Part shown: piece after piece, positions 21,187 through 36,473 of the stretch | Layout of the letters: every line of letters begins with the position of its first letter | Position numbering within the stretch: position 1 is the stretch's first letter | NCBI GenBank assembly: GCA_030605415.1 | Contig: JAUWIJ010000001.1 | Location: 91,514-155,513 of the forward strand | DNA from: an archaeon | Lineage (GTDB): Archaea > Nanobdellota > Nanobdellia > Pacearchaeales > GW2011-AR1 | DNA length: 64,000 bases | Direction of reading: 5' to 3' | Program-made: the position numbers and the translations under genes | Notes under the pieces: generated by a model | Databases searched by the model: none | The model's input: the letters and a program-made list of their open reading frames with translations, nothing else | What the model was told of the DNA's origin: nothing

Positions 21187-22125
21187 ATGAAAATACCAAA
21201 AATAAGTATCGGAATACCAATCTATAATGAAAAAGATACGCTAAAGCAAACGCTGATTTCTGTGTCTCTTGCTCTGAAAAAAATCAGCTTAAAATATGAA
21301 ATATTACTCTGTTTTAATGGAACTACTGATAATGGAATACAAGTTGCAAAAGAAATGAAAAATCATGAACCTAACATTAAAATTCTTGAAAGTGAGAATG
21401 GAAGAACTAAAGCAATGAAAAAGATAATTAATACGGCTAAAGGAGAGATGATTATTTTTTGCGATGCGGATATTATTGTAGACGAATATTGTTATTTCAA
21501 CATATTAAAAAAATTTCAAAATGAGAAAATTATAGCAGTTGTAGGTAACCCTATCCCCATAGAGAAAAAAGGAGTTTTATATCATATCTTAAATGCTCGT
21601 ATGATGAATTTTGGTTCAGAAATTTCTAGAAAACCCATTGATGGTTTCAAACATAAACCATTTGTCCATGGAAGAATTTTTATAATTAAAAGAGAATTCT
21701 TTATTAACAATTACTTATTTGAAGAAAGATTTGAAAATGCAATTAATGACGATATGTTTATAACACATTTAATAATATTGCAACATGGCAGAAAAGCAAT
21801 TACACATGAAGAGAATGCTAAAGTTAAATATTTACCTGTTCAATCCATAAATTCTTGGTGGCAAAAATGGGTTAGATTATGGGGAGATTTGGATTACCTA
21901 TACATTCAAAATCCAGAATTTAAGAAATTGAAATCCTTGATGAAAACAAAAATAGATTGGAATCTTATATCTAATAAACCCATATCATCCAGATTTTATT
22001 TTATAGCAGAAAGGTGTCTTCATTATTCAGGAAGATTTTATTTTAATATAACTAAAAAAGTTTATAGGAGGAAAAGATGTCTAAGGTTAAACGAGACAAA
22101 GAAGGAATTCCAGATAATGCAATAA
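21187..22125 (+). CDS. glycosyltransferase family 2
   Basis: IGIPIYNE, FNGTTDNG, IIFCDADI (DxD) and NDDMFI: GT-A fold motifs. Confidence 0.88.
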   Translation: MKIPKISIGIPIYNEKDTLKQTLISVSLALKKISLKYEILLCFNGTTDNGIQVAKEMKNHEPNIKILESENGRTKAMKKIINTAKGEMIIFCDADIIVDEYCYFNILKKFQNEKIIAVVGNPIPIEKKGVLYHILNARMMNFGSEISRKPIDGFKHKPFVHGRIFIIKREFFINNYLFEERFENAINDDMFITHLIILQHGRKAITHEENAKVKYLPVQSINSWWQKWVRLWGDLDYLYIQNPEFKKLKSLMKTKIDWNLISNKPISSRFYFIAERCLHYSGRFYFNITKKVYRRKRCLRLNETKKEFQIMQ

Positions 22126-23237
22126 AAATGACTGCTGGTCTTTCTTTGACAGAAAAATGCAATCTAAAATGTAAGCATTGCTACATTGGAGAGAAAGATT
22201 TATGGTTTGAAAAAGGATATAAGCCAAAAGAAATTACTATAGAACAAATAGAAAAATTAATACCAAAACTTCACCAAGTCAATGTTAAAAGAATTAATTT
22301 TGGCGGAGGGGAAGTTCCATTACATAAAGATTTTATTTTAATAGCAAAGAAATTGAATAATGCAGGTTTTGATATAGGACTAACAACCAACGGAACGACA
22401 TTCGAGATATACCGAGATTATTTACATTTATTTAATGACATTGGGGTAAGTATAGATTTTCCCGACGAAAGACATTCAAAATGGAGAGGCAGAAAAAATG
22501 TATTCAAAAGAGCGGTCAAAACATTAGAAAAACTTGTTGAAAGTAATATTAGAACTGAAATGAATACTTGTATTATGAATGTTAATTATGAAACTTTGCC
22601 TCAGTTGTACAAGCTTGCAAAAGATATTGGGGTAGATATGTGGAGGCTGAATAGGTTTCATTCATCAAAAAACGACGCACTAAGGTTTGGTGCAGATAAT
22701 TTGCCTAAAACAAAGGGATGTAGAATTAATAATAACTTGTCTTGTAGCATAGAGCAACTTAAAGAAACATTTGAATATTTGGCGAGCGTAACTCCAAGAA
22801 ATCAAAACTACGCTATCCCTGACCCACTATTTAGAACTTATGTAAATGGCAAAGGTGTTGTTAGGGGCAGTCCTTCTGGTAAAATTGCATTTAGAATTAT
22901 GTCTGATGGAGGAATAACCCCTAATGTATTCACTGATCAAATCGCAGGAAATATATTTTCAGATGAGCTTTCAGAAATAGTTCAAGGAGAAGTGTTTTCG
23001 CAATATCAAAAAAGAACTCCATCAGGCAAGTGTATAGGCTGTGCAAGTTATAATAATTGTGAAGGTGGAGATAAAACGGATTCATATTTAATTAAAGGAA
23101 ATATGAATTCTCCAGACCCGTATTGTTTTTTAGATACAAAAAAAAGAAATGACTTTAAATCAATTAAATTCGAGGATACAAAGTTTGTTCATGAAACATA
23201 TCTTGGAACAATTTATGTCCCAATTAAAAATGGTTAA
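22077..23237 (+). CDS. radical SAM protein with atypical SPASM domain
   Basis: CNLKCKHC, FGGGEVPL, TTNGT, VSIDF; C-terminal CIGCASYNNCEGGD...PDPYC. AGGAGG SD before ATG 22077. Confidence 0.9.
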   Translation: MSKVKRDKEGIPDNAIKMTAGLSLTEKCNLKCKHCYIGEKDLWFEKGYKPKEITIEQIEKLIPKLHQVNVKRINFGGGEVPLHKDFILIAKKLNNAGFDIGLTTNGTTFEIYRDYLHLFNDIGVSIDFPDERHSKWRGRKNVFKRAVKTLEKLVESNIRTEMNTCIMNVNYETLPQLYKLAKDIGVDMWRLNRFHSSKNDALRFGADNLPKTKGCRINNNLSCSIEQLKETFEYLASVTPRNQNYAIPDPLFRTYVNGKGVVRGSPSGKIAFRIMSDGGITPNVFTDQIAGNIFSDELSEIVQGEVFSQYQKRTPSGKCIGCASYNNCEGGDKTDSYLIKGNMNSPDPYCFLDTKKRNDFKSIKFEDTKFVHETYLGTIYVPIKNG

Positions 23238-23838
23238 AATAATTACTTTTGAAGGCTCAGATTATTCAGGAAAAACCGCTACGTTAAACCATTTAGCGAA
23301 AAAATTTAAAGAAGATAACAAATATTATTTTAATGAAGGAGCAGTCTATCCAACTGGGTTGTCCGCAAGGTTATCCTCAATCTCAAATCAATGTAATTCG
23401 TTTGAGAAAGAGTTTATTTATACTATGGGATATGTTTTAGATAGCGTTCAATCAGCCACAAATCATCCTCAAGATGAAAGGGTATTTTTTCAAGATAGAT
23501 ATTGGCCAAGTGTCGTTGCATATGGGAGGTTTTTTCATGATAGCAATTCTATACATAATAAGCAAGATTTCAGACCATTATTTTTATATCCTACTTCAAC
23601 AATTCTTCTTAGTTGTTCTTATCAAGAAAAGATTAATAGAAGTAATACTAGAGGGAGAAAATCTATTATAGATAAGTTTTTACTTAAAGACCCTTCAAAA
23701 TTAATTCAACTGGAAGATCAAATCGAAAAGTCTCTTGAAGGGCTTCCAAATATTTGCAGAATAGATACAACTGGAATACCAATCGAGGATGTAGCTTCAA
23801 AGATTAAACTTTATCTAAAAGATAATAAAATAATATGA
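23230..23838 (+). CDS. thymidylate (dNMP) kinase-like P-loop protein
   Basis: ITFEGSDYSGKT P-loop and FQDRYWPSVVAYG (TMPK DR motif). ATG at 23230 overlaps the upstream stop; ORF-track start 23149. Confidence 0.75.
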   Translation: MVKIITFEGSDYSGKTATLNHLAKKFKEDNKYYFNEGAVYPTGLSARLSSISNQCNSFEKEFIYTMGYVLDSVQSATNHPQDERVFFQDRYWPSVVAYGRFFHDSNSIHNKQDFRPLFLYPTSTILLSCSYQEKINRSNTRGRKSIIDKFLLKDPSKLIQLEDQIEKSLEGLPNICRIDTTGIPIEDVASKIKLYLKDNKII

Positions 23839-23875
23839 GAGAAACCTTTAATAAACAAGATAAATATAAAATCAT

Positions 23876-24346
23876 ATGGAAAAAAGAACGACAATTAGAA
23901 TTGGCGTAGTAATTTTGGATGGCTCTAGAATTCTAATTACAAAAATGCACAGGGAAAATTCAGAAGACATATATGTTTTGCCTGGCGGTGGAGTGGAACA
24001 TGGAGAAAGTTTGATTGATGCAGCTATTAGAGAAGTAAAGGAAGAAACTTGTTTAGATATTGAGGTTGAAAAAATTTTATACTTAAAAAATTTATATACT
24101 GATGAGGGACATTTTACCGAAGTGATAGTATTAGGTAAAATTATTGGTGGAAAGTTAGAAAAAGGAGTTGACCCAGAAGAAAAAGGAGTTGAAAAATTAA
24201 AAGCTGTTGAATATATCGATTTAAAGGATTTGGAAAATATAAATTTTCATCCAAGACAACTTAAAACACTTTTAAAAAAACATCATGAAGATAGCTTTAA
24301 TGGAGATGCCCAATATCTCGGTATATTCAAATATCCGGAGGATTGA
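23876..24346 (+). CDS. NUDIX hydrolase
   Basis: Nudix box GGVEHGESLIDAAIREVKEETCL. Confidence 0.92.
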   Translation: MEKRTTIRIGVVILDGSRILITKMHRENSEDIYVLPGGGVEHGESLIDAAIREVKEETCLDIEVEKILYLKNLYTDEGHFTEVIVLGKIIGGKLEKGVDPEEKGVEKLKAVEYIDLKDLENINFHPRQLKTLLKKHHEDSFNGDAQYLGIFKYPED

Positions 24347-25362
24347 TATTATTTAAAATGAAACATATAGTTACCGACAAAGAAAAATGCTTTACTTCTA
24401 CTGGAGAAAAATTACTATATCATACGGAAGAAATGAAAAAATTTCAAAATGAAGCGAAAGCGACTCCCATCGTTCTTCATATTATGCCTACAAGCGTTTG
24501 CAACCTTAAATGTGAATTTTGTTCAGTAAAAGATAGAAAAGTTTGTGAAATATTAAACCTAAAGACACAAATAATTCCCTTAATAAAAGAACTAAAAAGT
24601 AGAGGACTAAAAGCAGTTATTATTAGCGGAGGGGGAGAACCTTTACTTTATGAACATTTTGAGAAATTAATAGAATTTCTTTATAATAATAACCTCGATA
24701 TAGGACTAATTACAAATGGAACATTGTTATACAAATATGATAAAGAATTATTTGAAAAACTTACATGGATACGTGTTTCTATTAATTCAATTGAATATGG
24801 TGGGAAAGTGAATATTCCCAAATTAAGAAATCCGACTATGGGACTTAGCTATATTGTAACAAAAAAAACAACCAATCAAATGTTAAATAAAATTAAAAAT
24901 TTAGCTTTAGAAAATAATCTTGAATATGTAAGATTACTCCCAGATTGTGTACAACCACAAGATAAGATTATTGAATGGCATAAAAAAATTGAGAAAATTG
25001 TGAAGGAATTTGGCTCACCATTTTTTCATCAATACAAAGTTCCATCTTGCCCGAAAAATTGTTTTTTAGGATATTTTCACCCAGTTCTTTATTGTGATGG
25101 GAATATTTATCCTTGTGATTCTTTAGTTTTGAATGATCATGACAATCAGCAATTTAAAGAAAGTTTCATGATTTGTAATGCAAAAGATATAGGGAAAGTT
25201 TACGATAATTTAGCAAACAAGAGTTTAGTAGAAACGAAGACTCAATGTCCTAATTGTGTATTTGAAAGACAAAACAATCTTTTGGTTGATATAAAAAATA
25301 AGAAAATAAAAATTTCAAAAAAGAATGAATTAAAAGATATGAAACATATTAATTTTATATAA
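24343..25362 (+). CDS. radical SAM protein with Twitch/SPASM-like C-terminus
   Basis: CNLKCEFC, ISGGGEPLL, LITNGTLL, WIRVSIN; C-terminal CFLG...DGNIYPCD...CPNC. Confidence 0.9.
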   Translation: MILFKMKHIVTDKEKCFTSTGEKLLYHTEEMKKFQNEAKATPIVLHIMPTSVCNLKCEFCSVKDRKVCEILNLKTQIIPLIKELKSRGLKAVIISGGGEPLLYEHFEKLIEFLYNNNLDIGLITNGTLLYKYDKELFEKLTWIRVSINSIEYGGKVNIPKLRNPTMGLSYIVTKKTTNQMLNKIKNLALENNLEYVRLLPDCVQPQDKIIEWHKKIEKIVKEFGSPFFHQYKVPSCPKNCFLGYFHPVLYCDGNIYPCDSLVLNDHDNQQFKESFMICNAKDIGKVYDNLANKSLVETKTQCPNCVFERQNNLLVDIKNKKIKISKKNELKDMKHINFI

Positions 25363-26013
25363 ATGAAATCTCAAAAAATTACTGATAATTGTGAAGATTA
25401 TGATGAAGACTATTTCGAAAGAGGTTTATCCTCTGGGAAATCTGGATATGATAATTATAGATGGTTGCCGGAATTAACTATTAAGTTTGCATATAAAATA
25501 ATAAAAAAATTAAATTTGAGAGAAGGTGATAAGGTTCTTGATTATGGGTGTGCAAAGGGATTTCTTGTTAAGGCTCTTAGGATATTAGATATTGATGCGT
25601 ATGGTTGCGATATTTCTAATTATGCAATTAGAAATTCAGATATGGAAGTTAGAGAATATTGCAAACTAATAAGAAATAAAATTCCGTTTGCAGACGAGTT
25701 TAAGTGGGTTATAGCTAAGGATGTTTTTGAACATTTACATGAAAAAGAATTGGAGACTATATTAAAAAATATTTTAAAAACCAATAAGAATCTATTTGTT
25801 ATTGTTCCATTTGGAAAAAATAATAAATTTATTGTTCCAGCATATGATTTAGACATTACTCATAAGCTGGCTAAACCTTTGGATTGGTGGGAAAAGAAAT
25901 TCGAGAGCTGTGGTTGGAAGGTCGATAAATTTTCATATTTAATAGATGGAATGAAGGATAATTGGAAAAAATACAGTGAGGGGAATGGATTCTTTTTTTT
26001 GAAGAAAAGTTAA
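25363..26013 (+). CDS. class I SAM-dependent methyltransferase
   Basis: YDEDYF, VLDYGCAKG (motif I), YGCDIS, DVFEHL. Confidence 0.88.
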   Translation: MKSQKITDNCEDYDEDYFERGLSSGKSGYDNYRWLPELTIKFAYKIIKKLNLREGDKVLDYGCAKGFLVKALRILDIDAYGCDISNYAIRNSDMEVREYCKLIRNKIPFADEFKWVIAKDVFEHLHEKELETILKNILKTNKNLFVIVPFGKNNKFIVPAYDLDITHKLAKPLDWWEKKFESCGWKVDKFSYLIDGMKDNWKKYSEGNGFFFLKKS

Positions 26014-26670: not shown

Positions 26671-27288
26671 CTAGACTATAATTAAATCGTGATCCATTAA
26701 GCAGAGATTCCACGCTTTCTGAAATCTACTTTTTGAAATTTTTTTATTTAGTCCTGCCTTATAGGGACCACTGTCATGATAAATTATTTCATCATTCCTA
26801 AATTCAGTTAAAATAATGTAGTGTCCAGAAAATTTATTAGGTTTTTTATTAAATACATCCCAATTAACTAAACATATAGGAATTTTTTCTTGTTGGATTT
26901 TTCTTTCAAGGGTTTCTATTGGTAGCTTATCTTTAATCGCAATTATTCCCGAAGAATTTTGGACTTCTTTGATAGATTTATTTAAAGCAATAAAATTCAT
27001 ATTTGAAGTTACTTTAGAACCATAAGCCTTTTGTGTGTAATTTTGTATATTCGGAGACTGAGCAAAAGTTAATCCCTCAGGTTTAATATAATACTCAAAA
27101 GGAACTTGTAACTGATGGAAACCATAAGCTATTTGAATTGGAAGAGTAATTTGTGGATCTTGATGTAGTGTCAAATTATCTAATTCCTCAAAAGTAAAAT
27201 TTCTATTTGGCAATCTTACTTTTAAGACAGATTTCATTGTAGCTTGAGCACATCTATGCCCATAGTTTTTATGTAAAGGGGTAATCAT
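26671..27288 (-). CDS. C39-like (papain-fold) cysteine peptidase
   Basis: Cys in GHRCAQATMKSVL, His in SGHYIIL, Asp in IYHDSG: the Cys-His-Asp order of C39-type peptidases. TAATG overlap with the upstream peptide gene. Confidence 0.75.
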   Translation of the reverse strand: MITPLHKNYGHRCAQATMKSVLKVRLPNRNFTFEELDNLTLHQDPQITLPIQIAYGFHQLQVPFEYYIKPEGLTFAQSPNIQNYTQKAYGSKVTSNMNFIALNKSIKEVQNSSGIIAIKDKLPIETLERKIQQEKIPICLVNWDVFNKKPNKFSGHYIILTEFRNDEIIYHDSGPYKAGLNKKISKSRFQKAWNLCLMDHDLIIV

Positions 27289-27626
27289 TATTTAGGCCCA
27301 AAATCTTTATGGCCTCCATAATATCTATCTCCCCATCCTCCTCCACCCGTATCGCTATAATCGCTATGTTTTGTATGATCCACATGTCTTCTTGGTGCTG
27401 ATTTAGTGCAGTCGCTATGACTACTTCTTTCAGAATAATTCTCTCCAGTATAATAATCGCTATGTTTTGTTCCACTATCACTATATGTCTTATTATCACT
27501 ATAGTTAAATATAAAACCGCCTCTCTCTTTCACAGCTCTTAGAATATGTGGATTTTTAATTTTATCAAATTCAATTTTATGTCCCATTATTTCACATTTT
27601 TTTGGTAACCCGTTTTTTTCTTTCAT
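27288..27626 (-). CDS. putative RiPP precursor peptide with [Y/H]-x-[D/E] repeats
   Basis: 112 aa; leader ends ..KNPHILRAVKERGG, followed by nine YSD/HSD/YSE/HVD/HKD motifs. GGAG SD; TAATG overlaps on both sides. Confidence 0.75.
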   Translation of the reverse strand: MKEKNGLPKKCEIMGHKIEFDKIKNPHILRAVKERGGFIFNYSDNKTYSDSGTKHSDYYTGENYSERSSHSDCTKSAPRRHVDHTKHSDYSDTGGGGWGDRYYGGHKDFGPK

Positions 27627-28723
27627 TATTTCTTGTCTCCTTTTATTTCGGCCTTTGTTAATTCTGTATGTACTTTTGATTCAATGTGCTTAAACATCAT
27701 TTTATATCCCACACAATAAGGATCTTTCCCCATTATATCTCCGCCAATTAAGGCATTATGTTGACATCCGCTATTACAAATCGGACCATACTCGCATTGT
27801 TTACATTCTGTTATTTTTTCCAATCCTCTTTCCTTGAGTTTCTTTCGTATATCTGATTCAAGTGCCTTTGCCATATCATTTTTCTCATTTACATTTCCCA
27901 TCCAATAATTTTTTAGTCCATCAAATCTTCCACAAGGATAAATGTCTCCTTGGGGTCCTACTGAAATAAAACTATCTTGACAAGATTTTGAGTAATTACA
28001 TCCATTCGGTCTGCCAGACATTAAATTTCCCATAATCTGACTAAATGGGTCCACTTCAATTGCATCATAATCATCTATCCATCTATCAAATAACGTATTC
28101 ATTGCTTTCGCATATTCTATTGGAGAGATTCCGAAGTTTGTATCTTTTGTATCAATTATATGATTTAATTTTAATCCTATTTCGTTTTTATTAAAAAATT
28201 CATAAATTTGGTCAAGGTGTGGTAAGTTATGTTTGTTAACTACAGCTATTGCACCACTTCCCACAAAAGCTTTTCTATCTTGTGCCATTTTTATTCCTCG
28301 AAAAATATCTCTAAATGCCCCATCTCCATTTGCGTAAATTCTGGTTTTGTTGCTTATATCTTCAGGTCCATCAAGACTAAATCCTAAATAAAAATCTTTT
28401 TCTTTTTCTATAAAATCCAATAATTCCTTAGATACAAGAGTTCCGTTGGTTTGTATGCTGTTTGAGAAACCCTTATTTTGTTTTTTAAACTCATGCGAGA
28501 GTAAAGATATTTCTTTGAAAAAATTTAATCCTGCCAATAATGGCTCTCCTCCATGCCATATAAAATGCGCTTCTTCTTTATTTGAATTTTCTACAACTTG
28601 GTCTATTGTATTATGAAGAGTCTCTTTTGACATCATACCTTTCTCTGCACCTTTTTCTATGTAGCAATATTTACATCTAAGGTTACAATTATGAGTAGGT
28701 TTTACAATTGCTGTTAATCCCAT
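27626..28723 (-). CDS. radical SAM/SPASM peptide maturase (anSME-like subfamily)
   Basis: IVKPTHNCNLRCKYCY, WHGGEPLL, IQTNGTL, SLDGP; SPASM CNYSKSC...GDIYPC...CKQCEYGPICNSGC...DPYC (8 Cys). Confidence 0.92.
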   Translation of the reverse strand: MGLTAIVKPTHNCNLRCKYCYIEKGAEKGMMSKETLHNTIDQVVENSNKEEAHFIWHGGEPLLAGLNFFKEISLLSHEFKKQNKGFSNSIQTNGTLVSKELLDFIEKEKDFYLGFSLDGPEDISNKTRIYANGDGAFRDIFRGIKMAQDRKAFVGSGAIAVVNKHNLPHLDQIYEFFNKNEIGLKLNHIIDTKDTNFGISPIEYAKAMNTLFDRWIDDYDAIEVDPFSQIMGNLMSGRPNGCNYSKSCQDSFISVGPQGDIYPCGRFDGLKNYWMGNVNEKNDMAKALESDIRKKLKERGLEKITECKQCEYGPICNSGCQHNALIGGDIMGKDPYCVGYKMMFKHIESKVHTELTKAEIKGDKK

Positions 28724-28806
28724 TGTAACTTTATAATTACGACAGACTATATAAGTTTTACGGTGATTTGCGTTAATATTAAATACTCTTTGAGATAAAT
28801 ATTTTT

Positions 28807-30477
28807 ATGAATAAGAAAGAAGATGAAAAGAAAAAAGAGAAAGATGAAAAGAAAAAAGTAAAAAAGTATTCTTTTTTAGATAAAAGTGCTGAGAAGCAAG
28901 ATATAAATTATACCATCAAGGAAGTCATGACCAAGGCTCACAAACCAGGAGAATTAGCAGCTATGGGAATGTGGGAATGGCTTTATGATGATAAAGATGA
29001 CAAGATAGGAAAATTTAAGCCAATCTCCTCGCACAGATTGGGTTTTGATTCACAACAGAACCAGTTGGAGCCAACATATTATTGGCTATTAGACTGGTTG
29101 GGCGAGAGAGGCTGGGATTTAAAAAAGATTATTGATAATTTTATGGCATCACCTGGGTCAGGACAATTTTCCGAAATGAATATGAAAGCAACAAAAATGC
29201 AAGAGGAAGGAATGAAAATTCTTGGAGGTATGAATCAGGTTGTGAAATCCGTTCTGAATTTGATTTATGATTTGAAAGAGTTTGAGTTGAGATTGGAGCA
29301 TTACGATGATGCTAACAATAAGGACGATAAACAAAAGAGAGAGGAAGGGATGTTAGCATTAAAACAAATATGGCTGGATAATGTTGACCTAAAGAGAGGC
29401 CGAGGCTCAGTTCATCAGATGGCGGCAGAGCTTGGTTTTACGACGCTAAGAGAAGCGTTTATGATGGCTAATTCTATTGAAGATTTGAAAAAAATGAATA
29501 AGGATGAAGAAGGCGGAATGATTAATGACCAGGTCATGAGAATTTTGATTCCAAGAATTAGCGAATTTTTAAAATGGACAGACTATTCAGAAAAAGAATT
29601 AAGAAAAAGATTCAGCATAGAAAAAAATTATTTAAAGTCTCAGGTTGAAACGATTAAATTATATTCTGCATGGATGAAGCCATACTTAGTTGCGGCGGAA
29701 AAATTGAGACAAAAAGGTTTTGACAACCATTCAGCTTTGGTTAACGCATTTTCGACCTCGATGTTTGAGTTGCAATTATTCGGGAAACAACCTGTAAAAC
29801 TCACAGATGTTTATGACGGAAACTATAATATAAAAAGAGAATATAATGCAGTTCTAATTATCGGGCTCGAATTTCGCGGACATGTTTCACAAAGGGTAAC
29901 GCAAAAAGGAGACTACGGATTTGCGATGGGAGGAAAAGTTGATATGACTTTCGATTGTTACGCTTTGAATGATGAAGAATTAGCGACGGCAAATAAATTG
30001 TTGGAAGATACAGATGTTGAAAAAAGTCTGGAGTTTTCGGCAGATATCGCAGGAGATGCTTTGACAGATTTGAAAGAAGATTTGGATTATTTTTTGACAA
30101 GCAAAGAAGATAAAGATAAGATAGATGCCAAAGACAAAAAGAAAGAGAAAAAATCCCAAGATATTAATCCGTTTGCGGCGTTATTTGGATTAGATAAGAA
30201 AAAGAACAAGAAAACGAAAAATGAAGAGGAAGTTATAATTTTAGCGCCAGAAGATATTAAGAAAGATAATTTCGTTGAAAAAATGATGAGGGGTGCAGCG
30301 GCTAAAAGTGCTGCAGATTGGTTATACTTGGCTTATGATATATATAAGAAAGCCCACAAAATGGCCTCAGCACCTGGTGAAGGATTTGATAAGCTCGACG
30401 AAGAAGCTGTAGAACGTTATGAAGAGGGTGGCAATGTAGGATTCACCGGAGCTTTCAAAAGCAAAAAAAGTAATTAG
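28807..30477 (+). CDS. hypothetical protein (largely helical, Lys-rich ends)
   Basis: Long 556-aa ORF with normal coding composition; no recognisable motif. Confidence 0.7.
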   Translation: MNKKEDEKKKEKDEKKKVKKYSFLDKSAEKQDINYTIKEVMTKAHKPGELAAMGMWEWLYDDKDDKIGKFKPISSHRLGFDSQQNQLEPTYYWLLDWLGERGWDLKKIIDNFMASPGSGQFSEMNMKATKMQEEGMKILGGMNQVVKSVLNLIYDLKEFELRLEHYDDANNKDDKQKREEGMLALKQIWLDNVDLKRGRGSVHQMAAELGFTTLREAFMMANSIEDLKKMNKDEEGGMINDQVMRILIPRISEFLKWTDYSEKELRKRFSIEKNYLKSQVETIKLYSAWMKPYLVAAEKLRQKGFDNHSALVNAFSTSMFELQLFGKQPVKLTDVYDGNYNIKREYNAVLIIGLEFRGHVSQRVTQKGDYGFAMGGKVDMTFDCYALNDEELATANKLLEDTDVEKSLEFSADIAGDALTDLKEDLDYFLTSKEDKDKIDAKDKKKEKKSQDINPFAALFGLDKKKNKKTKNEEEVIILAPEDIKKDNFVEKMMRGAAAKSAADWLYLAYDIYKKAHKMASAPGEGFDKLDEEAVERYEEGGNVGFTGAFKSKKSN

Positions 30478-30510
30478 TAAAGTAGATAAAGTTTGTTTCT
30501 ATTGAATTAT

Positions 30511-31125
30511 ATGACAAAAAAGAAATCGGAAACCAAAAAAGACACCAAAACCAACGAAGAGAAAAACATCTTAATAGAAGAAAGTGTCAAGGAGAAAGAT
30601 GCCGACAAAAACAGTAACTCAGAAGAAGCCGGAATTTTTGATGAAGATTTAAATGATATTGACGAAACTGTCGACGACGTTAGTGATTTTTCTATTGGAA
30701 ACACAATTTTATCGTCGGCGCCATTGGCACATGGGCAACACGGACGAAGGGGACATAATTTAGAAGAACTTGCCGAGAGGAAAAAAACTGAAGATTCTAA
30801 GTGGAATGATTCTGGCGAATTTGACAAAAAAGAAAATTTAGGAAGAGATTTTTACGGAACAACTCAAAAAGTAAACGACTTATATAAAAATGGAAACAAT
30901 AACCAGGATTTGTACAACGAAAGAAACGGCGATTTATATTCCGGCGAAAACAATAAGACCGATGTTTACGATGTTAAAAAAAGTAACATTAAAAATTATG
31001 GGGCACTGGTGGACAATCGACATTCGGGTCGTTCAATGTTAGAAGTTGCCGGATTTGAAGACAAGGAAAAACAAAAACAAAGAAACATGCGAGGACTCGT
31101 CAAATATGAAGGAAAGGAAGAATAG
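30511..31125 (+). CDS. hypothetical acidic, low-complexity protein
   Basis: Open ORF rich in D/E/N; ATG at 30511. Confidence 0.6.
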   Translation: MTKKKSETKKDTKTNEEKNILIEESVKEKDADKNSNSEEAGIFDEDLNDIDETVDDVSDFSIGNTILSSAPLAHGQHGRRGHNLEELAERKKTEDSKWNDSGEFDKKENLGRDFYGTTQKVNDLYKNGNNNQDLYNERNGDLYSGENNKTDVYDVKKSNIKNYGALVDNRHSGRSMLEVAGFEDKEKQKQRNMRGLVKYEGKEE

Positions 31126-31168
31126 AGTTATATTTAAATAATAAGTTTCATTTATTTCTTGAGGTGAT

Positions 31169-33145
31169 ATGGCATACAATACTACGAATTACGAATCTTT
31201 TTACGGCGGAGGAACAAGTTCGCTCAGTCCCGATTATGGAAATTTTACCGGCTATCGAATGAGCGCTGCGCAATTGGGTTTTCCGGGTTCGCCACAAACG
31301 GCAAATCAATTAGGGGAAACGGTCAATGCAATAAAACAAGGCGTAAAAGCATTTGAGGTTACAATGCTTATGCCAGAAACAGCTGAAGTAATTCCCACAC
31401 AACATTTTCAAGAAATGAGAGCACTAATGAAACTTAGCGGAGTTAAACCGTCGGTGCACGGTCCTTTGATTGATGCGGCGGGCTTTAATGATAAAGGATG
31501 GGGAGGCGAAGAAGGGCAGGCAGACAATGAACGAAGAATGTTTGACGCAATTGAGAAAGCGCATATATTAGATCCCAAAGGAAACATCCCCATTGTTTTT
31601 CATTCTTCCAACGGAACACCTGGCGCTGAATGGAAACCGGGCGATAAATCTCTTGGAGAAGATAAATTTGTAATGGAAAAAGGCTCCGCAATTAATCGAG
31701 AAACCGGGCAAATGATTGCGATTAAAAGAGAATATAAATTTCGACTGGACCAACCTGAATATTTAGAAAAGGGACAAGTTAAGGGAGGACCAAAAGGTGT
31801 TTTGTTTGATGCCGAAGGAACTGTCGGCTCCGCGAATTTGGGCGAGTGGGAAAACAAAATGACCGAGATTGCGCAAATGAATAAACACGCAGAGGAAATT
31901 ATTGGAGCTGCACCTATAAATTTGGAAGGATACGAAAATGCTGCGATTAGAAAAGATGGTGAAGTTATTGTTGATATGAGGACAGGAAAGACATTAGCTC
32001 CTTTTAATAGTGAAGGAAGAGAAAATCAGGTTGAGGCATATAATAAAATGAGGAAGGCGGGGCTTTTTCTTGAAAATTCAGAGCTGTCTTTTAATACGGC
32101 ATTTCATCAGGCATATAAATATGGCACCGATAAACAGAAAAAAGAATTGAAAGAATTGTCCAAGGAGTATACTACAGCGATGTATGGAGATAAAAAAACT
32201 TTAGGGGCAAAGCAGGTTGATGAAAAATTTATTTCTATTTATGGACCACAGAAGAGAATACATATTTTGAATGCGACATTGGAAAAGATGGGAGAAATTA
32301 CTGAAAATAAAATGGTCGTTAAAGATGGAGAATATGTTCTTAAAAATGGAAAGAGGTTTAAAGATAAAGATTACGGGACACCACAAATTTTTCAAGAAAC
32401 TGAAAAATTTGCTATGGGAAAAGCATCTCAGACTTTTGGGAATTTGGCTATGAAATCTTATGATAAGTTTGAGGAAAATGCTCCGGTAATTGCAATTGAA
32501 AACATGTTTCAGGGAATGGCATTTTCGCGAGCAGAAGATATGAAGAAATTAGTTGAGATGTCGAGGAAGAATTTTATTAAGCAATTAATTTCTAAGAAAG
32601 GAATAGACGAAAAAAAAGCCAAGAGTATTGCGGATAAACATTTGGGTGTGACTTGGGACGTCGGACATATTAATGTGATGAAAAAGAAAGGATTTACAGA
32701 TAAAGATGTTATTGAACAAACGAAAAAGATTGCACCGATGGTTAAACATATTCACCTGACGGATAATTTCGGCTATGCAGATACACACTTGGCACCAGGA
32801 ATGGGAAATGTTCCGATTAAGGGAATTTTGGAAGAGTTAGAAAAGACTGGGCGATTTGACGAAATGAGAAAAATTACAGAAGCCGGAGGTTTTGTTCAGC
32901 AATTTAAAAAGTCTCCCCACCCAATGACAATGGCCGCGTTTGGCTCACCAATTTACGGAATGAAATCTGCTCCTTACTGGAATCAGGTGATGGATATTCA
33001 GGGCTCGTATTTTGGAGGCTACGGAACAGTTAGTCCTTCTCAACATCATTCAATGTATGGCTCGGGGTTTACAACAATGCCGGTTGAGTTAGGCGGACAG
33101 ATGCCTGGTGGGCAGTCGCGGTTTGGCGGAACACCGATGGCGTAG
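31169..33145 (+). CDS. xylose isomerase/AP endonuclease 2-like TIM-barrel protein with large insertion
   Basis: Metal-binding motifs SVHGP, IAIENM, TWDVGH, HIHLTDN..DTHLAPGMG. GAGGTGA SD. Confidence 0.75.
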   Translation: MAYNTTNYESFYGGGTSSLSPDYGNFTGYRMSAAQLGFPGSPQTANQLGETVNAIKQGVKAFEVTMLMPETAEVIPTQHFQEMRALMKLSGVKPSVHGPLIDAAGFNDKGWGGEEGQADNERRMFDAIEKAHILDPKGNIPIVFHSSNGTPGAEWKPGDKSLGEDKFVMEKGSAINRETGQMIAIKREYKFRLDQPEYLEKGQVKGGPKGVLFDAEGTVGSANLGEWENKMTEIAQMNKHAEEIIGAAPINLEGYENAAIRKDGEVIVDMRTGKTLAPFNSEGRENQVEAYNKMRKAGLFLENSELSFNTAFHQAYKYGTDKQKKELKELSKEYTTAMYGDKKTLGAKQVDEKFISIYGPQKRIHILNATLEKMGEITENKMVVKDGEYVLKNGKRFKDKDYGTPQIFQETEKFAMGKASQTFGNLAMKSYDKFEENAPVIAIENMFQGMAFSRAEDMKKLVEMSRKNFIKQLISKKGIDEKKAKSIADKHLGVTWDVGHINVMKKKGFTDKDVIEQTKKIAPMVKHIHLTDNFGYADTHLAPGMGNVPIKGILEELEKTGRFDEMRKITEAGGFVQQFKKSPHPMTMAAFGSPIYGMKSAPYWNQVMDIQGSYFGGYGTVSPSQHHSMYGSGFTTMPVELGGQMPGGQSRFGGTPMA

Positions 33146-34390: not shown

Positions 34391-34676
34391 TTAATAGCCA
34401 TATTTAAATGTTTTGATGGTTGTGATTGGTTTCTACCGCAAACTAATAATACTCAATCTTTTCCCACCCAAAAATAGACATTAAATCCATTTCAATTATT
34501 TCTTTTACAAATTTGTCTCTTATTTTTGAGATTAATTATTTTTTATACTAAATTAACTTCTTTATGTTTTATATTGTTTTTTAGTGAATTTTCCTGACAT
34601 ATTTATTAATTAACTTTAAAATCCCTAATCTTTTAAATAAAATAAGGTGACTATTTTTATTGTCAATTATATTAAT

Positions 34677-36473
34677 ATGGAAAATAAAAAAACAACAAAC
34701 CCTTTATGGAATGTTCTCAAAACAGAGTGGAAATATTTGGGCGACCGGAAGAAAATTTTCGTTTTGTATATGTCTATGTTCGTGATAGCTGGCGGAATAA
34801 GTTTACTTAATCCCTTAGTTATCGGACTTATTTTTAATTCAATCCAACAAACTATTAGCTCGGAAGCAGAATTAATGAATTTAATTTTTATGATATTTTT
34901 ACTTTTAGCACTTACGATTGGATTTCGGATTTTTCATGGAATAGGAAGAATTCTTGAGGGGCTAACCGGATTTAAGGTCCAAAGAAACTATACTAATTCA
35001 AAAATTAAAAGAGTTTTAGAATTGCCCGTGAAATGGCATAAGTATCATCATTCGGGAGACACAATTGATAAAGTTAACAGGGGAAGAGAATCCATCGGTT
35101 CTTTTGCGGAATCTGCAACCTATTCAATTGTTTATACAATTTTAAATATTTTTGGAGCTTTAATAATTTTATTTTTTATAGATAAAAAAATAGCTGCTTT
35201 TGCAATGATATTTTCTTTTTCAGTTTTATTTATAATAATGAAAATTGACAAAAGATTGTCTGAATATTATAAGCAACTGAACAAATATAGTAACAATCTT
35301 TCTTCTGCAGTTTTTGATTATTTGAGTAATATTCTAACAGTCATCACTTTGCGTCTGAAAAAAATAGTATCACGGGAAATTGATGAGAAGTTTACGGCAG
35401 CATGCGAAATAAATAAAAAAAGTGTGTTACTAAATGAATTCAAATGGGGATTTGCGAGCATTGCAATATCACTTATGACAGTTTTAGCTTTGAGCTATAG
35501 AGCATATTCTGACTATTATGCAACGGGAATTATTTTAATTGGAACTCTTTATATGCTGTATGGTTATTTAAAAATGGTAGGTCAAACCTTCTACGAATTT
35601 GCTTATTCATATGGAAAAATTATTAGGTATGATGCGAGAATTCAGGGAGCATATCCTATCGATGAAGCGTTTGAAGAAATAGAGAAAAAAATTAAAGGAA
35701 AATTGCCCCGTGACTGGAAAGATATTGAATTGAAAAATTTGAATTTCAAGTATGATTTTTCTATCGAGAGAAGTAATCTTGTCGATGTTAATGTTAAGTT
35801 CAAGAAGGGAAAGAAAATTGCTTTAGTCGGAGAGAGTGGCTCAGGGAAGAGTACTATTTTGTCAATTATCAGAGGACTCTATACTCTCAGCGAGGGGAAA
35901 ATTTATTGTGACGGAATAAAAGTAAAAAACGGCATTGATGGACTTAAGCAGAGTGTTAGTTTAATTCCGCAGGACCCTGAAATTTTTAATAATACACTTA
36001 GGTATAATATGACAATGGATTTGAAAACCAGTCGAGAAGAATTAATTAAAGCAATTAAGATGGCGCAATTTGGTGACGTAGTTAATAGATTAGAAAAAGG
36101 ATTAGATACCAATGTCTTAGAAAAGGGAGTTTCTTTAAGTGGCGGAGAGAAACAAAGACTCGCATTGGTTCGGGGTTTGCTCGCTGCGAAAAAGAGCGAC
36201 ATTGTTTTGTTAGACGAACCGACCAGTAGCGTCGACAGTTTAAACGAAATGAAAATTCACGATAATATATTCGAGGAGTTCAAAGATAAGACAATTATTT
36301 CTTCAATTCACAGACTACATCTTCTTGACAGATTTGATTATATTTATATGTTCGAAAACGGACGAATCGTTGCAGAGGGAAATCTGGAAGAAATTAAAAA
36401 GAATTTTAAATTCAAACATATTTGGAGAAAGTACGGAGAGAGAAGAAAATCAAATTCACAACAACCTTTATAA
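34677..36473 (+). CDS. ABC transporter, fused permease/ATP-binding (exporter type)
   Basis: Six TM helices, GESGSGKST, LSGGEKQR, LLDEPTSSVD, SSIHRL. ATG at 34677. Confidence 0.93.
   Translation: MENKKTTNPLWNVLKTEWKYLGDRKKIFVLYMSMFVIAGGISLLNPLVIGLIFNSIQQTISSEAELMNLIFMIFLLLALTIGFRIFHGIGRILEGLTGFKVQRNYTNSKIKRVLELPVKWHKYHHSGDTIDKVNRGRESIGSFAESATYSIVYTILNIFGALIILFFIDKKIAAFAMIFSFSVLFIIMKIDKRLSEYYKQLNKYSNNLSSAVFDYLSNILTVITLRLKKIVSREIDEKFTAACEINKKSVLLNEFKWGFASIAISLMTVLALSYRAYSDYYATGIILIGTLYMLYGYLKMVGQTFYEFAYSYGKIIRYDARIQGAYPIDEAFEEIEKKIKGKLPRDWKDIELKNLNFKYDFSIERSNLVDVNVKFKKGKKIALVGESGSGKSTILSIIRGLYTLSEGKIYCDGIKVKNGIDGLKQSVSLIPQDPEIFNNTLRYNMTMDLKTSREELIKAIKMAQFGDVVNRLEKGLDTNVLEKGVSLSGGEKQRLALVRGLLAAKKSDIVLLDEPTSSVDSLNEMKIHDNIFEEFKDKTIISSIHRLHLLDRFDYIYMFENGRIVAEGNLEEIKKNFKFKHIWRKYGERRKSNSQQPL

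What the first reader, a model, noticed from the sequence alone, without database searches (positions are those of the whole stretch)
26671..28723. Candidate archaeal RiPP operon: radical SAM/SPASM + [Y/H]xD-repeat precursor + C39-like peptidase
Seen: three minus-strand genes joined by two consecutive TAATG 1-nt stop/start overlaps (27626 and 27288). They are an anSME-type radical SAM enzyme with a complete 8-Cys SPASM domain and no N-terminal RRE, a 112-aa peptide full of aromatic-x-acidic triplets, and a Cys-His-Asp peptidase. No sulfatase, the usual anSME substrate, is in the window. Established: anSME-like SPASM enzymes (XyeB/GrrM/FxsB-type triceptide maturases) crosslink aromatic residues to the +2 residue in Omega-x-x motifs, including Tyr/His-initiated motifs, and C39 peptidases remove leaders. 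Inference: this is a self-contained multi-cyclophane RiPP pathway in a reduced-genome DPANN archaeon, a lineage not known for peptide natural products.
Basis: partly seen in the sequence, partly recalled or inferred. Interest (0 to 1): 0.93.

Follow-up and report, generated by a model that had tools for sequence, protein, structure and literature searches.

The report
Archaeal His/Tyr-x-Asp ring-peptide operon
A tiny-genome archaeon carries a three-gene operon (radical SAM enzyme, repeat peptide, cysteine peptidase) that very probably makes a peptide stitched into many small rings, an undescribed and mostly archaeal branch of the known bacterial "triceptide" natural products.

Summary
Three minus-strand genes (27626-28723, 27288-27626, 26671-27288) are joined by two TAATG overlaps. 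They encode an RRE-less radical SAM/SPASM enzyme, a 112-aa peptide with ten [H/Y/W]-x-[D/E] triplets, and a C39-like Cys-His-Asp peptidase.

The RiPP reading is supported by comparison.
- The peptide belongs to an unmodelled precursor family of 184 clusters. It has a conserved leader, an F-[LMI]-F-x-Y junction and a variable triplet core (aromatic to acidic at +2, z = 57).
- In 19 of 20 lineages the precursors (1-4 in tandem) directly follow an orthologous rSAM. In 8 of 20 the peptidase follows them. One database protein fuses enzyme and precursor.
- These rSAMs form their own clade apart from true sulfatase maturases and lack the anSME catalytic Asp. The genome has no sulfatase.

The closest described chemistry is YxdB, which links Tyr-C3 to Asp-Cβ on YxD, and the His-C2 to Cβ triceptide synthases. 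The chemistry here is inferred, not shown.

- The Gly-Gly site is not a family feature.
- The peptidase is optional.
- No exporter is linked.
- One bacterium (a Kiritimatiellae MAG) carries a horizontally acquired copy.

Verdict: a new member of a known kind, of moderate interest.

The parts
28748..28754 (-). TATA-box-like TTATATA, 24 nt before the rSAM ATG, inside the 83-bp divergent intergenic region 28724-28806. It is a likely archaeal promoter of a near-leaderless operon transcript.
   Evidence: Read directly from the sequence. This is inference only. The sigma-70 and terminator scan is not informative for archaea.
27626..28723 (-). Radical SAM/SPASM peptide maturase, 365 aa. It has no RRE, a CX3CX2C motif at C13/C17/C20, and 8 auxiliary-cluster Cys.
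   Evidence: Pfam gives Radical_SAM plus SPASM. In NCBIfam the best hits are DynA at 280.8 bits (cut-off 450), anSME at 240.5 (cut-off 349) and TIGR04083 at 205.7 (cut-off 300). It forms a clade of its own with 14 other precursor-linked rSAMs. Family-specific residues are K185, R266, R299, H57 and G265.
27516..27626 (-). Leader of the precursor, residues 1-37: ..EIMGHKIEFDKIKNPHILRAVKERGG.
   Evidence: The leader is conserved across families (EI[ML]GH.[IV]....I.NP.[IL][RK]RA[IV]..R). N25 is nearly invariant in 150 sequences.
27288..27515 (-). Core of the precursor, residues 38-112 plus the stop. It holds the junction F38-I-F-N-Y42 and then ten [H/Y/W]-x-[D/E] triplets: YSD42, YSD48, HSD55, YSE64, HSD70, HVD81, HSD87, YSD90, WGD98 and HKD106.
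   Evidence: F40 is nearly invariant in the family. The family-wide +2 register has z = 56.7.
26671..27288 (-). Stand-alone C39-like papain-fold cysteine peptidase, 205 aa, with catalytic C13/H156/D172. It has no signal peptide or transmembrane segment by eye.
   Evidence: PF09778 scores 35.2 bits, above its cut-off. The triad is conserved (H156 also). The AF2 model has pLDDT 89.8, and its best PDB fold match is the ComA peptidase domain 3k8u (probability 1.0, TMt 0.77), followed by the PCAT1 C39 domain. It lies directly after the precursors in 8 of 20 lineages.

Best explanation
This is a triceptide-type RiPP operon.

Proposed steps:
1. The 112-aa peptide is a precursor. Its conserved N-terminal leader (about residues 1-37, an NP.[IL][RK]RA[IV] helix) docks it onto the RRE-less radical SAM/SPASM enzyme.
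2. For each [His/Tyr/Trp]-x-[Asp/Glu] triplet, the enzyme cleaves SAM reductively. The 5'-deoxyadenosyl radical abstracts the Cβ hydrogen of the acidic residue.
3. The carbon radical adds to the aromatic ring two residues upstream (Tyr-C3 or His-C2). After oxidation through the auxiliary Fe-S clusters, this gives a three-residue cyclophane, at -2 Da per ring and up to ten rings in this peptide.
4. The cytoplasmic C39-like cysteine peptidase then trims the leader near the F-x-F-x-Y junction.

Shown here: the gene structure, the conserved enzyme-precursor-(peptidase) linkage, the strict +2 register of the motif, the enzyme's separation from sulfatase maturases, and the peptidase fold and triad.

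Inferred: the bond type, the cleavage site, export, and the biological role. The role is probably an accessory conflict, interaction or metal-binding peptide, given the patchy distribution and the His/Asp/Glu/Tyr-rich core.
For: Precursor family. A profile search of 1.84 billion representatives finds 184 clusters, nearly all 56-132 aa. They share the leader and junction and have hypervariable triplet cores.

Motif register.
- An acidic residue at +2 of H/Y/W occurs 1291 times against 401 expected (z = 56.7).
- The +1, +3 and +4 offsets are depleted.
- 75% of His and 71% of Tyr in cores obey the rule, but only 4% of Phe.

Linkage.
- An rSAM of 32-74% identity lies immediately upstream in 19 of 20 independent lineages, with 1-4 tandem precursors.
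- The peptidase lies downstream in 8 of 20.
- P0144 is a single 475-aa protein that fuses the rSAM to a precursor.

The rSAM is not an anSME.
- The precursor-linked rSAMs are monophyletic and separate from anSMEs.
- True anSMEs pass TIGR03942 and this enzyme does not.
- The anSME Asp277 and Tyr24 equivalents are lost. Invariant basic residues K185, R266 and R299 are gained; they could pair with acidic X3 residues, which is inference.
- The genome has no sulfatase.

Precedent.
- YxdB forms Tyr-C3 to Asp-Cβ on YxD (PMC11002830).
- HaaB, YhhB and HtkB form His-C2 to Cβ (PMC11499958).
- Characterised triceptides are cleaved just before the first ring motif (PMC12912966).
Against: - There is no biochemical or expression evidence.
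- The enzyme fails every curated 3-CyFE model: YhhB 143/445, GrrM/OscB 128/310, FxsB 102/370 and AmcB 112/425. Its best hit is DynA, which also makes a C-N link.
- The most conserved part of the core is the F-x-F-x-Y junction, not the triplets. The true or additional site of modification could therefore lie there.
- The peptidase is absent from 12 of 20 lineages. In one relative it survives alone, with no precursor anywhere in the genome.
- No conserved cleavage motif exists: GG precedes the junction in only 12 of 137 precursors.
- No exporter is linked.
Confidence: 0.65

Rival explanations
1. The gene set is the same and it is still a RiPP, but the chemistry differs. Options are a dynobactin-type C-N link (His-N to Cβ), daropeptide-type ether or C-C links on the conserved Ω-x-Ω junction F-x-F-x-Y, or a non-crosslinking change to Asp/Glu such as hydroxylation or epimerisation.
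For: - The best curated model is the dynobactin maturase DynA at 280.8 bits, above all 3-CyFE models.
- The junction F-[LMI]-F-x-Y is the most conserved core element (F40 at 90% or more), and it matches the Ω1-X2-Ω3 pattern said to typify daropeptides (PMC12912966).
Against: - The DynA score is far below its cut-off of 450.
- The strict +2 register, with 75% of His and 71% of Tyr paired with Asp/Glu, points to the triplets as the repeated substrate unit.
- Tyr-Asp and His-X3 C-C links have direct precedent.
Confidence: 0.2
2. The product is not a secreted natural product. It is an intracellular or cell-bound functional peptide, such as a rigidified metal-binding peptide or a source of a redox cofactor in the manner of PqqA/PqqE. 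The papain-fold enzyme would then act as a processing peptidase or transpeptidase in that role.
For: - The core is 14% Asp, 12% Tyr, 9% His and 8% Glu, all metal ligands.
- There is no signal peptide and no linked exporter.
- The peptidase fold also matches phytochelatin-synthase-like Alr0975 and CtaG.
- PqqE, an rSAM/SPASM enzyme, links Glu to Tyr; this rests on established knowledge.
Against: - The cores are hypervariable in length and motif number (0-18 triplets). Distribution is patchy: 2 of 37 genomes in the genus and 9 of 401 in the phylum sample. One copy was transferred horizontally to a bacterium. These traits fit an accessory RiPP better than a cofactor.
- This rival concerns the role. 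It does not exclude cyclophane chemistry.
Confidence: 0.12
3. The enzyme is an anaerobic sulfatase-maturating enzyme (anSME) or another protein-maturing rSAM, and the small ORF next to it is incidental.
For: - The closest solved structure by sequence is anSMEcpe (4k37, 141.9 bits).
- TIGR03942 is the second-best NCBIfam hit.
Against: - The score is below the anSME cut-off, whereas true anSMEs score 393-484.
- It sits in a separate clade.
- The catalytic Asp is replaced by Gly.
- The genome has no sulfatase.
- The small ORF is conserved and syntenic in 19 of 20 lineages, and once it is fused to the enzyme.
Confidence: 0.02

Closest known systems
YxD-type triceptides: maturase YxdB (WP_226048651.1) with its YxD precursor. 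Source: Sugiyama et al., JACS 2022, as summarised in PMC11002830.
   Same: Both pair an RRE-less rSAM/SPASM enzyme with an adjacent precursor that carries Tyr-x-Asp motifs. YxdB is shown to link Tyr-C3 to Asp-Cβ (i to i+2). That is exactly the register seen here (YSD, YGD, YDD and similar).
   Different: - The motifs here are as often His-x-Asp/Glu as Tyr-x-Asp. Glu is frequent at X3. There is a median of 9 and up to 18 motifs per precursor.
- The leader family is matched by no Pfam or NCBIfam model.
- The hosts are mostly tiny-genome archaea.
- Orthology to YxdB could not be tested, because its sequence and the original paper were not on hand.
His-type triceptide synthases: HaaB (HAA), YhhB (HNR/YxR), HtkB (HTK) and MicB (YSK/HAS/FTK).
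   Same: They form a His-C2 (or Tyr-C3) to Cβ cross-link on Ω1-X2-X3 motifs. One enzyme installs several rings per precursor. A charged active-site residue tunes X3 specificity (D214 in HtkB for Lys).
   Different: X3 here is acidic, so the family-specific basic residues K185, R266 and R299 may play the mirror role; this is inference. The NCBIfam YhhB model scores only 143 bits against a cut-off of 445.
Dynobactin maturase DynA (NF041298) and daropeptide maturases (DarE).
   Same: DynA is the best-scoring curated model, matched end to end (280.8 bits, residues 3-353). These enzymes also make i to i+2 links from an aromatic or His side chain to a Cβ (PMC11002830).
   Different: The score is well below the cut-off of 450. 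Dynobactin precursors are short and carry one core. The C-N and ether links of that group are not required by the motif seen here.
Anaerobic sulfatase-maturating enzyme (anSMEcpe, PDB 4k37; TIGR03942).
   Same: It has the same fold and the same two auxiliary [4Fe-4S] cluster Cys sets. It is the closest solved structure by sequence.
   Different: The score is below the family cut-off and the clade is separate. The Asp277 and Tyr24 equivalents are missing and no sulfatase substrate exists.
C39 double-glycine leader peptidases (ComA and PCAT1 peptidase domains).
   Same: They share the papain-like fold and a Cys/His/Asp triad with the same 16-residue His-Asp spacing as ComA. The ComA residue numbers are from memory. 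They are the best PDB fold matches.
   Different: The peptidase here stands alone and is not fused to an ABC exporter. It carries an insertion of about 70 residues and matches Pfam PF09778 rather than PF03412. The Gly-Gly site is present in this genome's precursor but in only 9% of the family.

Membership tests
Triceptide pathway (three-residue cyclophane-forming rSAM enzyme, 3-CyFE, plus precursor) | An rSAM enzyme with CX3CX2C and a SPASM domain binding two auxiliary clusters, and no RRE domain | tested here: met
   C13/C17/C20 lie at the very N-terminus. Eight conserved C-terminal Cys are present. Pfam finds Radical_SAM plus SPASM only.
Triceptide pathway (three-residue cyclophane-forming rSAM enzyme, 3-CyFE, plus precursor) | An adjacent precursor with conserved Ω1-X2-X3 motifs (an aromatic residue, then the partner at +2) | tested here: met
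   The window peptide has ten triplets. Across the family, the +2 enrichment has z = 56.7 while +1, +3 and +4 are depleted. Precursors are adjacent to the rSAM in 19 of 20 lineages.
Triceptide pathway (three-residue cyclophane-forming rSAM enzyme, 3-CyFE, plus precursor) | An aromatic-C to Cβ bond at each motif (-2 Da each) | not testable with these tools
   This needs co-expression with MS/MS and NMR.
Triceptide pathway (three-residue cyclophane-forming rSAM enzyme, 3-CyFE, plus precursor) | Sequence membership in a curated 3-CyFE model (YhhB NF041707, GrrM/OscB TIGR04261, FxsB TIGR04269, AmcB NF041718) | tested here: not met
   The scores are 142.9/445, 128.4/310, 102.5/370 and 112.2/425.
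YxdB (YxD triceptide) family | Orthology to YxdB (WP_226048651.1) | not testable with these tools
   The reference sequence and the JACS 2022 paper are not held. No NCBIfam model named for YxdB appears among the top hits.
Anaerobic sulfatase-maturating enzyme | Passes the TIGR03942 / NF010321 / NF010308 cut-offs | tested here: not met
   The scores are 240.5/349.45, 182.5/441 and 146.4/484. Control anSMEs score 393-484 on TIGR03942.
Anaerobic sulfatase-maturating enzyme | Catalytic Asp277 (and Tyr24) of anSMEcpe | tested here: not met
   Asp is present in 100% of 36 anSME-clade sequences; the family has Gly265. Tyr is present in 97% of the anSME clade and is variable in the family. The role of these residues is from memory of the anSMEcpe structure paper.
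Anaerobic sulfatase-maturating enzyme | A sulfatase substrate encoded in the genome | tested here: not met
   PF00884 gives 0 matches in the 0.89-Mb genome, which is 89% complete.
Dynobactin/daropeptide maturases | Passes the NF041298 (DynA) or NF038005 (DarE) cut-off | tested here: not met
   The scores are 280.8/450 and 150.6/650.
Dynobactin/daropeptide maturases | An Ω1-X2-Ω3 motif in the core | tested here: inconclusive
   The conserved junction F-x-F-x-Y fits the pattern, but the repeated unit is Ω-x-[D/E].
Peptidase C39 (double-glycine leader peptidase) | Papain-like fold with a Cys/His/Asp triad | tested here: met
   C13, H156 and D172 are conserved (H156 also). The ComA peptidase domain is the top PDB fold match, with probability 1.0.
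Peptidase C39 (double-glycine leader peptidase) | Passes Pfam PF03412 | tested here: not met
   The score is 12.8 bits against a cut-off of 22. PF09778 passes instead, at 35.2 against 28.1.
Peptidase C39 (double-glycine leader peptidase) | A Gly-Gly (or GA/GS) cleavage site at the end of the leader | tested here: inconclusive
   The window precursor has RGG just before F38. Across the family, GG occurs in only 12 of 137 precursors and any small-small pair in 23 of 137. Lineages that have the peptidase also show KPC, EKD, WKS and ANH at that position.

The most novel reading that the evidence does not exclude
This could be the first radical-SAM RiPP family centred in DPANN-type archaea. It would make poly-cyclophane peptides (median 9 and up to 18 rings) through bond types not yet described: His-C2 to Asp/Glu-Cβ and Tyr-C3 to Glu-Cβ. 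The rigid His/Asp/Tyr-rich product would serve the symbiont as a metal-capturing or host-interaction factor. The cassette has moved from archaea into at least one bacterium.
Probability: 0.3. Interest if true: 0.7.

Novelty: new member of a known kind. Interest (0 to 1): 0.52.

Why it matters
RiPPs made by radical SAM enzymes are hardly documented in archaea, and DPANN archaea are thought to have almost no secondary metabolism. This work defines a coherent family with clear boundaries.
- It has 184 precursor clusters, a dedicated rSAM clade, and often a dedicated peptidase.
- Public annotation calls the enzyme only 'radical SAM protein' and often misses the peptide.
- No Pfam or NCBIfam model covers the precursor.

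The family offers a simple two-gene test in laboratory E. coli: does triceptide chemistry extend to His/Tyr-x-Asp/Glu poly-motif substrates and to archaea? It also gives a candidate molecule for DPANN-host interaction or metal handling. The class itself (triceptides, including YxD) is already known, so the advance is one of breadth rather than a new principle.

Tried and rejected
Searches that gave little or nothing:
- The word-index homologue search with the peptide alone found only itself.
- The same search with the 150-sequence profile returned only 8 proteins.
- The genome-contig scan with the rSAM alignment was swamped by generic anSME-like and SCIFF enzymes. It yielded one true family member (L028) plus distant analogues (L075, L030, L035).
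- The 150-sequence precursor alignment was too diverse for the search for related loci.
- A narrower alignment found only 4 metagenome loci.
- Weak order-level hits L016 and L022 were false positives. L003 and L004 are rSAM paralogues without such a peptide.
- NCBIfam and Pfam scans of 150 precursors gave only scattered chance hits.
- PADLOC gave only generic rSAM-level similarity to viperins.
- A PDB sequence search with the peptidase found nothing, so a fold search was used instead.

Ideas considered and rejected:
- The 'leader-GG-core' idea was tested and rejected as a family rule.
- An anSME function was rejected.

Sources and tools not available:
- The JACS 2022 triceptide paper and the supplement of PMC11499958 are not held, so YxdB orthology is untested.
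- The rSAM-precursor fusion P0144 could not be folded, because only window or locus proteins may be submitted.
Full report
**What is there.** Three minus-strand ORFs occupy 27626-28723 (365 aa), 27288-27626 (112 aa) and 26671-27288 (205 aa). Both junctions read TAATG, so each stop shares a base with the next start. An 83-bp divergent intergenic region precedes the first gene. It holds a TTATATA box 24 nt before the ATG (28748-28754, read). That fits an archaeal near-leaderless transcript, but this is inference. The genome is archaeal: a partial 16S scores best on SSU_rRNA_archaea at 962 bits. It measures 0.89 Mb at 89% completeness, and its relatives are 0.5-1.3 Mb. This is consistent with a DPANN archaeon.

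**The enzyme.** The 365-aa protein starts directly with CX3CX2C and has no RRE. Pfam finds Radical_SAM, Fer4_12 and SPASM. In NCBIfam it scores as follows, below every curated cut-off:

| Model | Bits | Cut-off |
|---|---|---|
| DynA | 280.8 | 450 |
| anSME TIGR03942 | 240.5 | 349.45 |
| TIGR04083 | 205.7 | 300 |
| YhhB | 142.9 | 445 |
| GrrM/OscB | 128.4 | 310 |
| FxsB | 102.5 | 370 |

- Control anSMEs from Bacteroidota and Clostridia score 393-484 on TIGR03942.
- In a maximum-likelihood tree of 96 related enzymes, the 15 that sit next to a precursor of this type form one clade (support 97/94). A 56-row clade containing the control anSMEs and a SCIFF-maturase clade lie elsewhere.
- All 36 anSME-clade sequences have Asp at the anSMEcpe Asp277 position; the family has Gly265. 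The Tyr24 equivalent is also lost.
- K185, R266, R299 and H57 are invariant in the family only.
- The whole genome has no sulfatase. An anSME function is therefore rejected.

**The peptide.** The window peptide has ten [H/Y/W]-x-[D/E] triplets in its last 75 residues. Shuffles give 2.2 +/- 1.2, and none of 20,000 reaches ten. There is no DNA tandem repeat beneath it. It is not an orphan.
- A same-genus genome has a 71%-identical rSAM followed by two small ORFs with the same N-terminal half and different Tyr/His/acid-rich tails.
- A profile of nine such peptides, searched against 1.84 billion representatives, gave 184 clusters at E <= 1e-3 and 33 at E <= 1e-10. All those listed were 56-132 aa except one.
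- The common plan is a leader (..EI[ML]GH.[IV]....I.NP.[IL][RK]RA[IV]..R..), a junction F-[LMI]-F-x-Y(GD), then a variable core.
- Over 134 cores, an acidic residue two positions after H/Y/W occurs 1291 times against 401 expected (z = 56.7). Offsets +1, +3 and +4 are depleted.
- 75% of His and 71% of Tyr obey the rule, but only 4% of Phe. The commonest triplets are HTD, YGD, YSD, HSD, YSE and HSE.
- The median is 9 triplets per precursor and the maximum is 18.
- No Pfam or NCBIfam model covers the family. Public names for the linked enzyme are just 'radical SAM protein'.

**Linkage.** I collected 20 independent lineages that carry such a precursor:
- from related genomes;
- from contigs encoding peptidase or precursor relatives;
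- from a metagenome scan;
- from one bacterial MAG.

An rSAM of 32-74% identity lies immediately upstream in 19 of them, usually overlapping the first precursor. There are 1-4 precursors in tandem. The 205-aa-type peptidase follows directly in 8. The exception among the 184 clusters, P0144 (475 aa), is an rSAM of this type fused in one chain to a precursor.

Distribution is patchy.
- Only 2 of 37 genomes of the genus have the cassette.
- Only 9 of 401 genomes sampled from the phylum have it, all in one class.
- One Kiritimatiellae MAG has an rSAM (44% identity) plus a 97-aa precursor. Its rSAM nests inside the archaeal clade, and none of 300 other genomes of its phylum has the precursor. This points to transfer from archaea to a bacterium.

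**The peptidase.** PF09778 passes its cut-off, whereas the C39 models give only weak hits. C13, H156 and D172 are conserved (H156 also). An AF2 model (pLDDT 89.8) best matches the ComA C39 peptidase domain (3k8u, probability 1.0, TMt 0.77). Next come PCAT1, a C39-like peptidase, phytochelatin-synthase-like Alr0975, CtaG and PeiR. It is thus a stand-alone C39-like papain-fold enzyme.

Its cut site is unknown. The Gly-Gly pair in front of F38 in this genome occurs in only 12 of 137 family members, and lineages with the peptidase show other residues there. In one relative the peptidase (63% identity) survives alone at the same genomic position, with no precursor anywhere in that genome. It may therefore be a remnant or have a second role.

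**How it most likely works.** Triceptide synthases are RRE-less rSAM/SPASM enzymes that link an aromatic side chain to Cβ of the residue at +2 in Ω1-X2-X3 motifs (PMC11499958).
- YxdB makes Tyr-C3 to Asp-Cβ on YxD.
- HaaB, YhhB and HtkB make His-C2 to Cβ (PMC11002830).
- OscB accepts Asp at X3.
- Characterised triceptides are cut just before the first ring motif (PMC12912966).

The family here fits this scheme with X3 = Asp/Glu and Ω = His/Tyr/(Trp). The family-specific basic residues could pair with the acidic X3, mirroring D214 of HtkB for Lys; this is inference. I put 0.9 on 'rSAM-modified precursor peptide', about 0.65 on the full cyclophane-plus-leader-peptidase model, and 0.2 on other chemistry. 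Other chemistry would be a dynobactin-type C-N link or modification at the conserved Ω-x-Ω junction. The biological role is open. The acidic, His/Tyr-rich core and the lack of an exporter allow a metal-binding or cell-bound function. The patchy, mobile distribution fits an accessory conflict or interaction peptide.

**Comparison and novelty.** The class (triceptides) and even the YxD bond are described. Archaeal sequences have been noted in networks of related cyclophane enzymes (PMC11851443). I found no paper on archaeal or DPANN triceptides. New here are a delimited, mostly archaeal enzyme clade, an unmodelled poly-motif precursor family, and a PF09778-type peptidase partner. Earlier unchecked notes of this scan describe similar archaeal loci in other genomes. 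They agree with this reading but are not independent evidence. I rate the finding a new member of a known kind, with interest about 0.5.

**Limits.** There is no expression or chemical evidence. YxdB orthology is untested. The taxonomic make-up of the 184 clusters is unknown.

Noticed in passing
window 28807-33145 (+): Three genes: 556 aa with no Pfam hit, a 210-aa acidic protein, and a 658-aa protein with a xylose-isomerase-like TIM barrel. Homologues lie next to the cassette in several lineages in two arrangements: divergent upstream (window, L138, with a p556 homologue also in G279 and G127), or co-directional downstream (L115 group, L121, G708). Next to the lone peptidase in L111 lies a gene array of similar sizes, but its homology was not checked. 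Earlier notes of the scan call this a conserved Nanoarchaeota/DPANN core array, so the adjacency may be positional rather than functional.
   Followed up: partly
window 21187-26013 (+): A co-oriented cluster of GT2 glycosyltransferase, rSAM/SPASM, thymidylate-kinase-like protein, NUDIX, a second rSAM and a methyltransferase. The two rSAMs and the kinase give weak PADLOC hits to prokaryotic viperins and associated kinases. This may be a nucleotide-modifying or defence module next to the RiPP operon.
   Followed up: partly
P0144 (475 aa): A single database protein joins an rSAM of this clade (about residues 40-400) to a precursor of this family (401-474). It is either a natural fusion or a 1-nt assembly error at an overlapping stop/start. 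Either way it links the two families.
   Followed up: partly
L028 3498-4890 (Kiritimatiellae MAG JAQULY010000002.1): A high-GC bacterial copy of the cassette: an rSAM (44% identity) plus a 97-aa precursor, with no peptidase. The rSAM nests inside the archaeal clade, and none of 300 other genomes of the same phylum has the precursor. The precursor is not annotated in NCBI.
   Followed up: yes
L030 2735-4613, L035 2221-4631, L075 571-2768: Gut bacterial sister or analogue rSAMs also sit beside small Tyr/His-x-Asp-rich peptides, with unrelated leaders.
- Paludibacteraceae (L030): two peptides upstream, ending ..YADYNDYDD.. and ..YDYSDYHSDYADYD.
- Pumilibacteraceae (L035): two peptides ending ..HRDTYADSDCCC.
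- A Bacilli MAG (L075): a 73-aa Y-x-D peptide after a ClpP/SDH-type protease.

The Ω-x-Asp theme is wider than the archaeal family.
   Followed up: partly
L111 5001-5618 (GCA_964601675.1): A 63%-identical peptidase stands alone beside a gene array like the window's conserved one. No rSAM or precursor lies next to it, and no precursor is found anywhere in that 0.9-Mb genome. It is either a remnant of a lost cassette or a sign of a second role for the peptidase.
   Followed up: partly
window 34647-36473 (+): An ABC exporter (ABC_membrane plus ABC_tran, 608 aa) without a C39 domain lies about 6 kb from the operon. It is the only nearby export candidate, and it is not conserved next to the cassette elsewhere.
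   Followed up: no
L127 (G468:C1) 374-2985: Four tandem precursor genes (118-129 aa) follow one rSAM. Their leaders are near-identical and their triplet cores diverge, which is the extreme case of precursor amplification in the family.
   Followed up: partly
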